The translations under genes and the position numbers were made by a program. This document shows positions 32,297-64,000 of a DNA stretch of 64,000 nucleotides, one piece after another. The notes below the pieces were generated by a model that was given only the letters and a program-made list of their open reading frames with translations, had not been told where the DNA came from and ran no database searches. Position 1 is the stretch's first letter. Every line of letters starts with the position of its first letter. Source of the stretch: Escherichia coli (lineage in GTDB: Bacteria > Pseudomonadota > Gammaproteobacteria > Enterobacterales > Enterobacteriaceae); assembly GCF_003334305.1 (NCBI RefSeq), contig NZ_QOWS01000001.1. The stretch is one strand, 5' to 3'.

Positions 32297-32423
32297 TATA
32301 CTCGTCATACTTCAAGTTGCATGTGCTGCGTCTGCGTTCGCTCACCCCAGTCACTTACTTATGTAAGCTCCTGGGGACTCACTCACTTGTCGCCTTCCTG
32401 CAACTCGAATTATTTAGAGTATA
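32297..32423. repeat. ERIC (IRU) element, about 127 bp
   Basis: Hallmark TATACTCGTCATACTTCAAGTTGCATGTGCTGCG ... GCTCACCCCAGTCACTTACTTATGTAAGCTCCTGGGGA ... TGCAACTCGAATTATTTAGAGTATA with terminal inverted repeats. Confidence 0.7.
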
Positions 32424-60745: not shown

Positions 60746-61834
60746 TCACGGCAGGCGGTGGCGGGCTTGATAATAAGCCTGCCAGTGAGCTTCTTTATGT
60801 GTGGCGACTCGTTGTTCGAAGTAACGGCGCAGACGAGCGCGATCTTCTTCGTTATCTTTGACGATGGTTCCGGCAATGCAGTCCACCAGGTCGGCTGGCT
60901 CACCTGCGCGATTCGCTAAAAACCAGGCGCGGACGCCTACGGCGTGGGCCACGTTCACGGCTTCAGCGGTGGACATAATCGCTGTTAGTGTATCCATTGA
61001 CGTTTTCTTTTCGCCGTTGGCACGCAGATCGCGGAAGGTGCGGACCAGTAACTCCAGTACCGCGTCAGGCACTTTATGCGGAATACCGCTATGGGCCAGC
61101 AAACGCGCCGAAGCACTGGCGACAAGCTCCAGCTCCTGGGCGAAATCCATAATCGGAAAGACAGTTTCAAAATCGAAGCGACGCTTTAGCGCAGCACTCA
61201 TTTCATTGACGCCGCGATCTCGGGTATTGGCAGTGGCAATAATATTAAAGCCTTCTCGCGCATAGAGCTGACTGGCTTCACCAGTGAGTTCCGGCACCGT
61301 CATCACCCTGTCAGAAAGCATACCTAACAGACAGTCTTGCACTTCCAGCGGTGTACGCGTTATCTCTTCAAAACGGACGATTTTGCCGTCGCGCATTCCC
61401 TGGTAAAGCGGGGCAGGGACCAGCGCTTCCGTTGATGGACCATGATTGATAAGCAGGGCGTAGTTCCAGCCGTACTTGATTTGATCTTCGGTAGTAGATG
61501 CGCCGCCCTGGATGGTTAACCCGGCATCGCCGCTAATAGCGGTTGCCAGTAATTCAGACAGGAGAGATTTTGCGGTGCCAGGTTCCCCCACCAACATCAA
61601 ACCGCGCCCGGTGGCAAGAGTGACTAACATGCGTTCGACAGCGGAGGGACTAATCACCACTTTACGGCTAATATTTTGCGCGCTATCGCCAAGGATAAAA
61701 GCACGGGCCGCAGGCAAACTTAACTGCCAACCGGGCGGGCAAGGAGCGTTATCATTTTGTTTTAATTTTGCCAGTTCATCGGCGTATAACACAGCAGCAG
61801 GCGGACGCTGCAGATGATTATTCTGCGGTGACAT
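60746..61834 (-). CDS. yehL: MoxR-like AAA+ ATPase YehL, 362 aa
   Basis: ORF 60746..61915; start at 61834 (MSPQNNHLQRPPAA); Walker A GEPGTAKS. Confidence 0.9.
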   Translation of the reverse strand: MSPQNNHLQRPPAAVLYADELAKLKQNDNAPCPPGWQLSLPAARAFILGDSAQNISRKVVISPSAVERMLVTLATGRGLMLVGEPGTAKSLLSELLATAISGDAGLTIQGGASTTEDQIKYGWNYALLINHGPSTEALVPAPLYQGMRDGKIVRFEEITRTPLEVQDCLLGMLSDRVMTVPELTGEASQLYAREGFNIIATANTRDRGVNEMSAALKRRFDFETVFPIMDFAQELELVASASARLLAHSGIPHKVPDAVLELLVRTFRDLRANGEKKTSMDTLTAIMSTAEAVNVAHAVGVRAWFLANRAGEPADLVDCIAGTIVKDNEEDRARLRRYFEQRVATHKEAHWQAYYQARHRLP

Positions 61835-61944
61835 ATATTCATCCCTGAAATGTATTAATGAAATAAACGATATTTTACGCGCAATAAATGTTTGGCGCAT
61901 TAGTTGTTTGAGCAAAAAATATCTGGAAAGCAGATCGCAGTAAA

Positions 61945-62028
61945 TAAAAAAACCTGCTGGTGAGGCAGGTTCTTTTATTTACTATTTTCAGGCCTAACAC
62001 CACAGCCTGTGCAACATCGTGTTCCAAC
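61945..62028 (-). ncRNA. Candidate antisense sRNA antitoxin (OrzO/OrzP-type), about 84 nt
   Basis: Minus-strand TTGCAA-17 bp-TATAAT promoter (-10 at plus 62035-62040); predicted 5' end near 62028; strong terminator (AACCTGC-loop-GCAGGTT then TTTTT on minus); first ~20 nt complementary to the toxin leader at 62175-62194. Confidence 0.6.
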
Positions 62029-62034
62029 GAACGA

Positions 62035-62085
62035 ATTATAACCACGGCTGGACCCCGTTGCAATTAAGATAATGAGATTTATAAT
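62035..62085. promoter_or_regulatory. Back-to-back sigma70-like promoters sharing one palindromic -35 hexamer (toxin mRNA rightward, antisense sRNA leftward)
   Basis: Shared TTGCAA at 62058-62063; plus-strand TATAAT at 62080-62085 (16-bp spacer); minus-strand TATAAT at 62035-62040 (17-bp spacer). Confidence 0.55.
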
Positions 62086-62266
62086 CCAGACCGTTGGGAC
62101 GTTGCGCCGGATCGAACCTATTTCAAGTCCTGGCTACCGGACGGGGGGTGCTGCAGGTGGTGCCCTGATCCGGAGTGCAACATCGTGGTCCAACATACGT
62201 AAACCAGTATCGACAGGCAGTGTAAGGGTAAGGTGCTGGTGTTGCGCTCCTTAATAAGGAGAGCGG

Positions 62267-62356
62267 ATGGACTCGCTGACACAAAAGTTAACCGTGCTCA
62301 TTGCTGTACTGGAGCTATTAGTGGCTCTGTTACGGTTGATTGATTTGTTGAAGTAA
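62267..62356 (+). CDS. zorO/zorP: 29-aa hydrophobic peptide, type I toxin candidate (ZorO/ZorP-type)
   Basis: ATG 62267, AAGGAG 5 nt upstream; MDSLTQKLTVLIAVLELLVALLRLIDLLK, one predicted TM helix with charged ends; about 174-nt leader from the predicted start near 62093. Family name is from memory; which copy is zorO and which zorP is not resolved. Confidence 0.75.
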   Translation: MDSLTQKLTVLIAVLELLVALLRLIDLLK

Positions 62357-62377
62357 CGGGCAAATTGAAACGCATCT

Positions 62378-62402
62378 AAGGGGGAAAACCGCTTCCCCCT
62401 TT
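62378..62402 (+). terminator. Terminator hairpin of toxin mRNA copy 1
   Basis: AAGGGGGAA-aaccgc-TTCCCCCTT perfect 9-bp stem 22 nt after the stop; short U-tract. Confidence 0.5.
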
Positions 62403-62554
62403 AATAAAATGATTACTGTTTTTATTAATTCATCATATAACTCATTTTTATTTATAAATTCATCGATTTTATATTCAACGCACCATTTGACCGGGATGTG
62501 AATATTTATGTTGGGCTATTGGCAAAAAATATCTGGAAAGTAGATCGCAGAAAA

Positions 62555-62636
62555 TAAAAAAACCTGCTGGTGAGGCAGGTTCTTTTATTTACTACAGTGA
62601 CGCTAACTTGCTGATTGTGCAACATTTCGTACCAAC
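62555..62636 (-). ncRNA. Candidate antisense sRNA antitoxin, copy 2 (OrzO/OrzP-type), about 82 nt
   Basis: Minus-strand -10 TATAAT at plus 62643-62648 and shared -35 TTGCAA at 62666-62671; terminator 62561-62581 with U-tract; 5' region complementary to the copy-2 leader at 62783-62802. Confidence 0.6.
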
Positions 62637-62642
62637 GAATAA

Positions 62643-62693
62643 ATTATAACCATATCCACACTCCATTGCAATTCAGTGAGTGAGATTTATAAT
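62643..62693. promoter_or_regulatory. Back-to-back promoters of copy 2 sharing a palindromic -35
   Basis: TTGCAA at 62666-62671; plus-strand TATAAT 62688-62693; minus-strand TATAAT at plus 62643-62648. Confidence 0.5.
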
Positions 62694-62874
62694 CCTGCCC
62701 GTTGGGAGGTTGTGCCGGATCGGACCAATTTTAAGTCCTGGCTGCCGGACGGGTGGTGCCGCAGGCGGTGCCCTGATCCGGAGAGCAACGTTTCGTACCA
62801 ACATACGTAAACCAGTATCAACAGGCAGTGTAAGGGTAAGGTGCTGGTGTTGCGCTCCTTAATAAGGAGAGCGG

Positions 62875-62964
62875 ATGGACACGCTGACACAAAAGTTAAC
62901 CGTGCTCATTGCCGTACTGGAGTTATTAGTGGCTCTGTTACGGTTGATTGATTTGTTGAAGTAA
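62875..62964 (+). CDS. zorO/zorP: 29-aa hydrophobic peptide, type I toxin candidate copy 2 (ZorO/ZorP-type)
   Basis: ATG 62875 with AAGGAG upstream; MDTLTQKLTVLIAVLELLVALLRLIDLLK, differing from copy 1 only at residue 3 (S to T). Confidence 0.75.
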   Translation: MDTLTQKLTVLIAVLELLVALLRLIDLLK

Positions 62965-62985
62965 CGGGCAAATTGAAACGCATCT

Positions 62986-63010
62986 AAGGGGGAATACCGT
63001 TTCCCCCTTT
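62986..63010 (+). terminator. Terminator hairpin of toxin mRNA copy 2
   Basis: AAGGGGGAA-taccgt-TTCCCCCTT stem. Confidence 0.5.
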
Positions 63011-63018
63011 AAGAAAGC

Positions 63019-63073
63019 TATACTCGTCATACTTCAAGTTGCATGTGCTGCGACTTTAATTATCTAGAGTATA
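63019..63073. repeat. Truncated ERIC-like element abutting the yehK 3' end
   Basis: TATACTCGTCATACTTCAAGTTGCATGTGCTGCG ... AATTATCTAGAGTATA: ERIC terminal arms with the central part missing. Confidence 0.55.
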
Positions 63074-63391
63074 TTATTCTATTTCTTGGTTGAATATATT
63101 CTGTAGTTCACGATTAAAAATTGCTATTACAGTTTCAGGTGATTCACCTCGTAATTTCCGCTCATCAATACACTCATCTCTTATATAAATCAACGCATCA
63201 TTTATTAGCGGGTCAGCATCTTCTCGATCACGTTGATGAAATGTTGGATGTAGCCGGAATCGCTCCAGTCGATAGACGGAACCTGTAAATAATTCAGAGC
63301 ATTTATGGATCTCAAGTCTGAAGGAAAACGGATCTTCAGGTACAGGGACCTCATAATCGTAAATAGCAACTAGCTCTTTTTGCACGATCAT
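63074..63391 (-). CDS. yehK: Uncharacterised protein YehK, 105 aa
   Basis: 105-aa ORF (MIVQKELVAIYDYEVPVPEDPF...) between yehI and the repeat island. Confidence 0.85.
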   Translation of the reverse strand: MIVQKELVAIYDYEVPVPEDPFSFRLEIHKCSELFTGSVYRLERFRLHPTFHQRDREDADPLINDALIYIRDECIDERKLRGESPETVIAIFNRELQNIFNQEIE

Positions 63392-63451
63392 CGCTTTCCC
63401 CGCTGGTAAGTCGTGTAGATAACGGGCAGTCGCATCACTGCCCGCTGTGTT

Positions 63452-64000
63452 TTAATGGAAAATGACGTCAGGTGCGCTTAACGCCTCACTCAAATCAAAC
63501 ACATCAAGTTCGGCAAAAGTGACGGATTTATTGTCACGGTACACTCGAAGAGAACGGAAGCTCATTAGCGCTTTGCTATCAACATTGTAGTGGTTAAAAC
63601 CGGGTGAAAACTTAAGGACCAGCCGGTACTCGCCCAGGTCATAGACAAATGCATCCTCATAGCCTGACTCCCAGCCTTTGTATCGCATTCCCATAAGCTG
63701 CCCAACGGTAGCGGATTTACCTTCCCAGCGAGTCAGGCTGTTACTGGTTGACTCATCAGGTGTGAGCAGCACCGTGCACCGCGCCAACTGGCGAAAAGGC
63801 GGCATAATTTCGTAATCGGCAAAAAGCTGTGCAAATTCACTGCGCATTTCTACTGTCATTTCTAACGGGTGGGCAATGCCAATCAGAGCGTCCGCAGGCA
63901 GGTCAATTGGCTCATCTTGCGCATTGCAGAACTCCCCCTCTGCGGCCACACGAAAGGCGTTGAGTAAACAACGCGGTTCATTTGCCGGATAAGCCCCCCA
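63452..64000 (-). CDS. yehI: YehI (DUF4132 protein), C-terminal part only (gene continues beyond window end)
   Basis: Minus-strand open frame from the window edge to the stop at 63452; the track ORF 63452..63949 is its C-terminal portion; position before yehK. Confidence 0.8.
   Translation of the reverse strand, partial: WGAYPANEPRCLLNAFRVAAEGEFCNAQDEPIDLPADALIGIAHPLEMTVEMRSEFAQLFADYEIMPPFRQLARCTVLLTPDESTSNSLTRWEGKSATVGQLMGMRYKGWESGYEDAFVYDLGEYRLVLKFSPGFNHYNVDSKALMSFRSLRVYRDNKSVTFAELDVFDLSEALSAPDVIFH

What the first reader, a model, noticed from the sequence alone, without database searches (positions are those of the whole stretch)
63019..63073. Truncated ERIC copy at the edge of the toxin-antitoxin island
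An ERIC left arm joined to a right arm with the centre missing sits between repeat unit 2 and the yehK stop codon. A repetitive element at the island boundary suggests the island was gained or lost by recombination at this point, and may mark one insertion junction.
Basis: partly seen in the sequence, partly recalled or inferred. Interest (0 to 1): 0.35.

Follow-up and report, generated by a model that had tools for sequence, protein, structure and literature searches.

The report
Internally deleted ERIC repeat beside yehK
The 55-base sequence is a real but ordinary shortened copy of the ERIC repeat inserted right after the yehK stop codon; it arrived after the neighbouring zor-orz toxin-antitoxin genes, but the deletion that removed the toxin genes in K-12-like strains does end inside it.

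Summary
Window 63019-63073 is ERIC positions 1-37 joined to positions 102-127. It is 53/55 identical to a full 127-bp ERIC that sits at exactly this site in other strains, apart from one 72-bp gap. The gap lies between two 8-bp direct repeats (CTGCGACT). The same 55-bp form occurs at two or more other loci, so this is a recurrent ERIC isoform and not a sign of local rearrangement.

- The ERIC is not an island insertion junction. At least 1,383 of 5,426 complete E. coli genomes have a zor unit directly next to yehK with no ERIC.
- E. whittamii also has two zor-orz units and an empty site, which fits a TA target duplication.
- Two other Escherichia species carry zor-orz plus a full or long ERIC at this site.
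- So at this locus zor-orz is older than E. coli itself, and the ERIC was inserted later.
- However, the K-12-type "orz-only" allele (1,841 genomes) is a deletion running from nucleotide ~28 of the zor 5' UTR to ERIC position ~110. Only the last 17 nt of the ERIC remain.

This is a known element type in a known polymorphic locus, so interest is low.

The parts
63019..63073 (.). 55-nt internally deleted ERIC (IRU/RU-1) copy, made of ERIC positions 1-37 plus 102-127. Its terminal TA dinucleotides (63019-63020 and 63072-63073) are the presumed target duplication.
   Evidence: BLAST against the orthologous 127-bp copy. Global alignment 53/55 with one 72-nt gap. Empty-site comparison.
63019..63055 (.). 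ERIC left arm (positions 1-37)
   Evidence: 97% over 37 nt to the full ERIC of L004.
63048..63055 (.). CTGCGACT, the surviving copy of the 8-nt direct repeat (ERIC positions 30-37 and 102-109). This is the junction of the 72-bp deletion.
   Evidence: The two BLAST segments overlap here. Repeat positions 30 and 102 were found in three full ERIC copies.
63056..63073 (.). Rest of the ERIC right arm (positions 110-127). K-12-type alleles keep only the equivalent of 63057-63073.
63074..63391 (-). yehK coding sequence. Its TAA stop (63074-63076) abuts the ERIC.
   Evidence: ORF list. RefSeq annotation of identical or orthologous loci.
62986..63009 (+). zorO terminator hairpin (AAGGGGGAATACCGTTTCCCCCTT), 9 nt before the ERIC.
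   Evidence: Inverted and direct repeat analysis and the sequence itself.
62875..62964 (+). zorO (29-aa toxin MDTLTQKLTVLIAVLELLVALLRLIDLLK), repeat unit 2.
   Evidence: Translation. ZorO/ZorP naming follows PMC11264685.
62556..62629 (-). orzO antitoxin sRNA gene
   Evidence: Rfam RF02083 OrzO-P, 88.8 bits against a gathering score of 60.
62267..62356 (+). zorP (T3S variant of the toxin), repeat unit 1.
   Evidence: Translation. PMC11264685.
61946..62021 (-). orzP antitoxin sRNA gene. This is the part retained in K-12 as OrzPmg.
   Evidence: Rfam RF02083, 99.9 bits. K-12 sequence. PMC11264685.
62124..63056 (.). The 933-bp segment of this window that is missing from K-12-type (orz-only) alleles. 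It runs from zor 5' UTR nt ~28 to ERIC position ~110.
   Evidence: K-12 locus sequence. The span is 868 bp in K-12 against 1801 bp here. Junction alignment.

Best explanation
The element is a decayed copy of ERIC, a 127-bp non-autonomous element of the miniature inverted-repeat (MITE) type. An ancestral ERIC inserted at a TA dinucleotide immediately 3' of the yehK stop codon. That site lies in the short spacer between yehK and the terminator of the convergently transcribed zor toxin gene. The zor-orz units were already there when it inserted. In the lineage of this window, the 127-bp copy then lost its central 72 bp in place. The loss was a deletion between two 8-bp direct repeats (CTGCGACT at ERIC positions 30 and 102), most likely by slipped mispairing during replication. 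This left the two terminal arms as a weak 55-nt hairpin. In a different lineage that includes K-12, a deletion of about 0.4 kb or more joined nt ~28 of the zor 5' UTR to ERIC position ~110 across 2-3 nt of microhomology. That deletion removed the toxin gene and most of the ERIC and created the orz-only allele. What is shown: the identity of the element, the orthologous full-length copies, the empty sites, the junction sequences and the allele frequencies. What is inferred: the slippage mechanism, the order of events, and the view that the present 55-nt copy is a passive relic with no required function.
For: 1. Identity: 53/55 identical to the full ERIC at the same site, with one 72-nt gap flanked by the 8-nt repeats.
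2. Full (127 bp) and long (205 bp) ERICs occupy the same TA with the same flanks in E. coli cS91a, T309 and TUM17543. The same holds in Escherichia sp. E1V33 and MOD1-EC7003.
3. Empty sites: E. whittamii reads AAAC-TA-TTATTC, against GC-TA-[ERIC]-TA-TTATTC here. E. coli alleles without ERIC have one or two zor units. TA termini and TA target duplication are published ERIC properties (PMC2759123 and PMC2229807).
4. The deletion is recurrent. At rtcB'/prfH-yafP, FDAARGOS_1280 has the 55-nt form where K-12 has the 127-nt form. A third 55-nt copy lies between speF and speFL in O157. In all, 2,760 genomes carry a 55-nt-type copy somewhere.
5. Census of 5,426 complete genomes: about 921 window-type short, about 125 Nissle/N24-type short, 905 full or long, 1,841 K-12 junction, and 685 + 698 without ERIC.
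6. K-12 junction...GGACCAATTT|GAATTATTTAGAGTATA. The junction was 100% identical in the listed rows that cover it, apart from one at 98.3%. Its frequency (34%) agrees with the published ~30% of orz-only genomes that retain 27-29 nt of zor 5' UTR (PMC11264685).
7. No promoter-like or terminator-like site falls in 63019-63073. The hairpin is weak: -13.7 and -15.7 kcal/mol on the two strands, z about -2.9. For comparison, the full copy gives -46.7 kcal/mol.
Against: The same 55-nt architecture at three loci could instead mean that a short ERIC subfamily transposes as such. The order of events rests on only three outgroup genomes and on parsimony, with no genome-wide tree. Flanks of alleles with and without ERIC can be nearly identical: MSHS 133 differs from the window at 8 of 640 sites. 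So loss of the ERIC by excision, or by gene conversion of a small patch, cannot be excluded for some ERIC-less alleles. A regulatory effect of the hairpin on yehK mRNA was not tested.
Confidence: 0.85

Rival explanations
1. One reading: the ERIC copy marks the junction where the zor-orz island was inserted, or was exchanged by recombination between repeats.
For: The element lies physically at the yehK-side edge of the tandem zor-orz units. K-12-type strains lack the toxin genes and have a breakpoint in the ERIC.
Against: At least 1,383 E. coli genomes, and E. whittamii, have zor units next to yehK with no ERIC. All three outgroup species in which the yehK search found the gene carry zor-orz. 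No ERIC copy lies on the yehL side of the island. The K-12 state contains truncated fragments of both the zor 5' UTR and the ERIC, so it is a deletion product and not an unoccupied site.
Confidence: 0.04
2. The 55-nt element is a member of a mobile 'mini-ERIC' subfamily that inserted here independently. On this view it is not an in-place deletion derivative.
For: The same 55-nt architecture is found at three or more unrelated loci: yehK, yafP and speF.
Against: At both yehK and yafP, a full 127-bp copy occupies exactly the same TA with the same flanks in other strains. Independent insertion would therefore need repeated hits on the same dinucleotide. At yehK, the short copy shares the C variant in the right arm (TTATCTAGAG) with the E. 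coli full copies at this locus. The deletion end-points coincide with an 8-nt direct repeat, which is the expected signature of slippage.
Confidence: 0.08
3. The element is kept for a function. Examples would be acting as a 3'-UTR hairpin that tunes yehK mRNA stability, or insulating the convergent yehK and zorO transcripts.
For: It abuts the yehK stop codon, so it would be co-transcribed. ERICs co-transcribed with flanking genes affect mRNA stability in Yersinia (De Gregorio 2005, as summarised in PMC2229807 and PMC3184786). The Nissle/N24-type variant has evolved a much stronger hairpin (-32.3 kcal/mol).
Against: The site is polymorphic across E. coli: absent, 17-nt, 55-nt, 127-nt and 205-nt states each occur in hundreds of genomes. 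The window's hairpin is weak (z about -2.9). No terminator-like or promoter-like signal was found. yehK itself is frameshifted in several alleles.
Confidence: 0.08

Closest known systems
ERIC / IRU / RU-1 (enterobacterial repetitive intergenic consensus; Sharples & Lloyd 1990, Hulton et al. 1991)
   Same: Both arms match the sequence. It has the 7-bp terminal inverted repeat TATACTC...GAGTATA, TA termini, a TA target duplication, and an extragenic position just after a stop codon.
   Different: It lacks the central 72 bp, which I recall (not checked here) holds the core that the ERIC-PCR primers target. It therefore folds only weakly. From my own recollection, Wilson & Sharp (2006, Mol Biol Evol 23:1156) described shorter copies caused by internal deletions and longer copies carrying ~70-bp insertions. 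That paper could not be read here.
zor-orz type I toxin-antitoxin locus and its 'orz-only' alleles (Wen et al. 2014, PMC3919570; Shore et al. 2024, PMC11264685)
   Same: The window carries the duplicated zorO-orzO / zorP-orzP arrangement described for EDL933. The K-12 allele seen here is the published orz-only (OrzPmg) allele, with ~28 nt of zor 5' UTR left.
   Different: In a term search of PMC11264685 and PMC3919570, those papers do not mention ERIC or yehK. New here: the far end of the orz-only deletion lies inside an ERIC copy, and the locus is also present in E. whittamii and two unnamed Escherichia species. [quoted passage not shown]
Deletions between short direct repeats that flank palindromic DNA, by replication slippage (general mechanism, from my own knowledge)
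   Same: An 8-bp direct repeat lies at both ends of the 72-bp deletion, the deleted segment is the inner part of an imperfect palindrome, and the event recurs at independent loci.
   Different: The mechanism is inferred from junction sequences only. No rates or genetic dependencies were measured.

Membership tests
ERIC (IRU/RU-1) MITE-like repeat | Sequence similarity to the 127-bp ERIC consensus | tested here: met
   Arms are 97% (37 nt) and 96% (26 nt) identical to a full copy. That full copy is 105/124 identical to the published RU-1 sequence.
ERIC (IRU/RU-1) MITE-like repeat | Terminal inverted repeats with 5'-TA termini | tested here: met
   TATACTC...GAGTATA at 63019-63025 and 63067-63073. 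This property is listed in PMC2229807.
ERIC (IRU/RU-1) MITE-like repeat | TA target-site duplication, judged by comparing filled and empty sites | tested here: met
   The E. whittamii empty site is C-TA-TTATTC, against C-TA-[ERIC]-TA-TTATTC when filled. E. coli empty sites differ from this by one or two substitutions.
ERIC (IRU/RU-1) MITE-like repeat | Conserved central core (the region targeted by ERIC-PCR primers) | tested here: not met
   ERIC positions 38-109 (equivalently 30-101) are missing. The copy is therefore a truncated derivative and not a complete member.
ERIC (IRU/RU-1) MITE-like repeat | Stable long stem-loop in the transcript | tested here: inconclusive
   -13.7 and -15.7 kcal/mol on the two strands, z about -2.9. 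The full copy gives -46.7 kcal/mol, z -6.0.
ERIC (IRU/RU-1) MITE-like repeat | Extragenic and co-transcribed location | tested here: inconclusive
   The extragenic position directly after the yehK stop codon is shown. Transcription through the element was not measurable with these tools.
zor-orz type I toxin-antitoxin (context of the finding) | 29-aa Zor toxin ORF together with a divergent Orz sRNA | tested here: met
   ZorO and ZorP translations. Two Rfam RF02083 hits above the gathering score.
   Strains lacking the toxin carry a deletion with truncated zor UTR and truncated ERIC. The island occurs without ERIC in at least 1,383 genomes.

The most novel reading that the evidence does not exclude
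The ERIC copy may be an active fragile site and not merely a bystander. On this reading its palindromic structure and internal short repeats cause recurrent self-deletion, as shown by the same 72-bp loss at three or more loci. They would also have seeded the deletion that removed the zor toxin gene and left the orphan antitoxin OrzP(mg) allele, which about one third of E. coli including K-12 now carries. [quoted passage not shown] The two deletions end within 1-2 nt of each other in the ERIC right arm (position ~109-110).
Probability: 0.25. Interest if true: 0.35.

Novelty: already known. Interest (0 to 1): 0.15.

Why it matters
This matters little beyond local bookkeeping.
- It shows that the ERIC copy is a later passenger in the yehK-zor spacer and is not a landmark of island acquisition.
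- It shows that the zor-orz locus predates E. coli at this position.
- It maps the far breakpoint of the widespread orz-only (K-12) deletion to the ERIC right arm, a detail absent from the zor-orz papers I could search.
- It gives a clean natural example of the same 72-bp deletion between 8-bp repeats recurring in ERIC copies at different loci. This is relevant to interpreting ERIC-PCR and to using this spacer as a typing marker, since it has six common allele classes.

Tried and rejected
- Chance similarity: rejected on BLAST E-values and on the orthologous full-length copies.
- Rfam: there is no ERIC family. The only hit on the element was a sub-threshold match to part of isrH (20.8 bits against a gathering score of 45). 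I suspect that reflects ERIC-like sequence in that model, but I did not check.
- Promoter and terminator scan: nothing falls within the element.
- MG1655 annotation: I looked for an annotated repeat feature at yehK-yehL and found none listed.
- Wilson & Sharp 2006: I tried to read it, but it is not held.
- Ungapped flank identities were misleading because of indels, so I replaced them with MAFFT-based difference counts.
- The YehK outgroup scan returned only three loci. It returned none for E. coli itself, E. albertii, E. fergusonii or E. marmotae. The polarity argument therefore rests on few genomes.
- I considered a two-step origin of the K-12 junction through the TTCAAGT homology between the zor 5' UTR and the ERIC left arm. 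I rejected it because the K-12 junction reads TTTGAATT, which is right-arm sequence.

Full report
**Context.** The end of the window is the E. coli yeh region. The genes yehI, yehK, yehL and yehM lie on the minus strand. Between yehK and yehL are two tandem units of ~608 bp. Each unit encodes a 29-aa toxin on the plus strand: zorP at 62267-62356 and zorO at 62875-62964. Each also encodes a divergent antitoxin sRNA. Rfam OrzO-P matches 61946-62021 and 62556-62629 on the minus strand, at 99.9 and 88.8 bits against a gathering score of 60. This is the duplicated zor-orz type I toxin-antitoxin locus described in O157:H7 EDL933 (PMC3919570, PMC11264685). A 1.8-kb stretch spanning the locus (window 61700-63500) is 100% identical to E. 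coli strains M8 and ZYS9073 and about 99% identical to O157:H7.

**The observation.** Window 63019-63073 reads TATACTCGTCATACTTCAAGTTGCATGTGCTGCGACTTTAATTATCTAGAGTATA. It starts 9 nt after the zorO terminator hairpin (62986-63009). It ends exactly at the yehK stop codon (TAA, reverse complement of 63074-63076).

- In strain cS91a, a complete 127-bp ERIC sits at the identical position.
- Positions 1-37 of that copy match 63019-63055 (97%). Positions 102-127 match 63048-63073 (96%). The two matches overlap on CTGCGACT.
- A global alignment gives 53/55 identities and one 72-nt gap.
- The cS91a copy is 105/124 identical to the published E. coli RU-1/ERIC sequence. A second, full ERIC in the window (32297-32423, between yeiS and preT) is 116/124 identical to it.

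**How the truncation arose.** Full ERIC copies carry CTGCGACT, or a 7/8 variant, at positions 30 and 102. The 72 bp between these repeats is exactly what is missing here. That is the expected signature of a deletion between short direct repeats.

The same product exists elsewhere.
- At the rtcB'/prfH-yafP spacer, strain FDAARGOS_1280 has a 55-nt ERIC where a K-12 derivative has the 127-nt copy at the same site.
- O157 strains carry another 55-nt copy between speF and speFL.
- In all, 2,760 of 5,426 genomes have a 55-nt-type copy somewhere, but only about 1,046 of these copies are at yehK.

The truncation is thus a recurrent ERIC isoform and does not indicate rearrangement at the island edge. 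A transposing 'mini-ERIC' is a possible alternative. It is less parsimonious, because full and short forms share the same TA and the same flanks at two loci.

**Is the ERIC the island boundary?** I used junction-specific queries against 5,426 complete E. coli genomes and counted matches covering at least 80% of the query.

| Allele at the yehK site | Genomes |
|---|---|
| Window-type short ERIC | ~921 |
| Short ERIC with a palindromised right arm (Nissle 1917 / N24 type) | ~125 |
| Full 127-bp or long 205-bp ERIC | 905 |
| K-12 junction | 1,841 |
| No ERIC, zor terminator directly next to yehK, site type 1 | 685 |
| No ERIC, zor terminator directly next to yehK, site type 2 | 698 |
| Total classified | 5,175 (95%) |

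Sequenced examples show ERIC-less alleles with one unit (RIVM_C037166) or two units (MSHS 133, UTAK-6, GPEC657, LP26). The island therefore exists without the ERIC in about a quarter of the species.

**Outgroups.** A YehK-based scan of one genome per species returned three non-coli Escherichia.
- E. whittamii has two zor-orz units and no ERIC. Its empty site reads AAAC-TA-TTATTC.
- Escherichia sp. E1V33 has one unit plus a full ERIC.
- Escherichia sp. MOD1-EC7003 has one unit plus the long ERIC. Both of these ERICs sit at the same TA.

The filled site here reads GC-TA-[TACTCG...AGAGTA]-TA-TTATTC. That is the TA duplication reported for ERIC (PMC2759123, PMC2229807, PMC3184786). So zor-orz is ancestral at this locus. 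This also extends the published statement that the locus is confined to E. coli and Shigella. The ERIC is a secondary insertion immediately 3' of the yehK stop codon. In ERIC-less type-1 alleles, a nearby substitution makes yehK one codon longer, 321 nt against 318 nt.

**What K-12 shows.** K-12 is not an empty site. Its yehK-yehL spacer keeps orzP, both promoters and about 28 nt of the zor 5' UTR. It then reads ...GGACCAATTT|GAATTATTTAGAGTATA, followed by the yehK stop. In other words, the last 17 nt of the ERIC right arm are fused to the zor leader.

- Relative to this window, the missing segment is 62124-63056, which is 933 bp (spans).
- Relative to a one-unit, full-ERIC allele, the missing segment is 397 bp.
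- The parental sequences share only 2-3 nt at the junction, or 8 of 12 in an imperfect repeat CAAnTTnAAnT. This is my own reading of the sequences printed.
- The junction was 100% identical in the listed rows that cover it, apart from one at 98.3%.
- The allele frequency of 34% matches the ~30% of 'orz-only' genomes with 27-29 nt of zor UTR reported by Shore et al. 2024. A term search found no mention of ERIC in that paper.

One end of the loss lies inside the ERIC, within 1-2 nt of the end of the 72-bp internal deletion. Whether the ERIC promoted that deletion or merely happened to be there cannot be decided from sequence.

**Function.** Nothing indicates that the 55-nt copy does anything.
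- It contains no promoter-like or terminator-like site.
- It folds weakly: -13.7 kcal/mol on the yehK-sense strand and -15.7 kcal/mol on the other, z about -2.9. The full copy gives -46.7 kcal/mol.
- The site is freely polymorphic across the species.
- Because it abuts the yehK stop codon, it would be part of the yehK 3' UTR. ERICs in that position alter mRNA stability in Yersinia. A modest effect is therefore possible but untested.

**Flanking haplotypes.** In 640 nt of yehK-yehI, the window, K-12, MSHS 133, UTAK-6 and GPEC657 differ at only 3-9 sites, although they carry a short ERIC, a 17-nt ERIC remnant or no ERIC. N24 (short) and TUM17543 (long) are identical to each other, and cS91a (full) differs from them at 7 sites. 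Two conclusions follow. The ERIC state has changed repeatedly within haplotype groups, or has been shuffled by short recombination tracts. The Nissle/N24-type and window-type short copies probably arose independently.

**Verdict.** This is a real, correctly described but ordinary truncated ERIC. It is not an island insertion junction. It is the yehK-side breakpoint of the K-12-type toxin-loss deletion. Both the element type and the locus polymorphism are already known. Interest is low.

Noticed in passing
window 32297-32423: A complete 127-bp ERIC copy lies between yeiS and preT. It is 116/124 identical to the published E. coli RU-1 sequence.
   Followed up: partly
L003 (E. coli N24) 1011-1065; also Nissle 1917; about 125 genomes: This is a second kind of 55-nt ERIC at the same yehK site. 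It has the same 72-bp deletion, but four clustered changes in the right arm make it almost perfectly complementary to the left arm. Its RNA fold is -32.3 kcal/mol (z -10.4), against -13.7 kcal/mol for the window copy. The pattern looks like correction of a near-palindrome by template switching.
   Followed up: partly
L013 1501-1555 (FDAARGOS_1280) versus L017 401-527 (K-12 MFDpir); L019 601-655 (O157, speF-speFL): The identical 55-nt short ERIC architecture occurs at other loci. At rtcB'/prfH-yafP, the short and the 127-nt forms occupy the same site in different strains. This indicates a recurrent 72-bp deletion between CTGCGACT and CTGCAACT repeats.
   Followed up: partly
L005 (TUM17543) ERIC region; L015 (Escherichia sp. 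MOD1-EC7003); NC101 (H137): A 205-bp long ERIC sits at the yehK site. It carries a 78-bp GC-rich, hairpin-rich insertion after ERIC position ~40. It is shared by some E. coli strains and by another Escherichia species at the same site.
   Followed up: no
L016 (E. whittamii), L014, L015: The zor-orz locus is present between yehK and yehL in E. whittamii (two units) and in two unnamed Escherichia species (one unit each). [quoted passage not shown]
   Followed up: partly
window 63074-63391 and orthologues in L002, L003, L004, L005, L006, L007, L008, L010: yehK itself varies. It is 318 nt when the ERIC is present and 321 nt in type-1 ERIC-less alleles, because the stop codon shifts by one codon. 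It is annotated as frameshifted in N24, cS91a and TUM17543. It is shorter (303 or 306 nt) or longer (354 nt) in other alleles, where it is annotated as a hypothetical protein.
   Followed up: no
L001 (K-12) 500-735, equivalent to window 61912-62123: K-12 keeps an intact orzP gene and the zor promoter with no toxin gene. This orphan antitoxin has already been published as OrzPmg. The yehL-side flanks of two alleles that share the K-12 junction (K-12 and strain 504239) differ at 14 of 380 sites, which suggests recombination after the deletion.
   Followed up: partly
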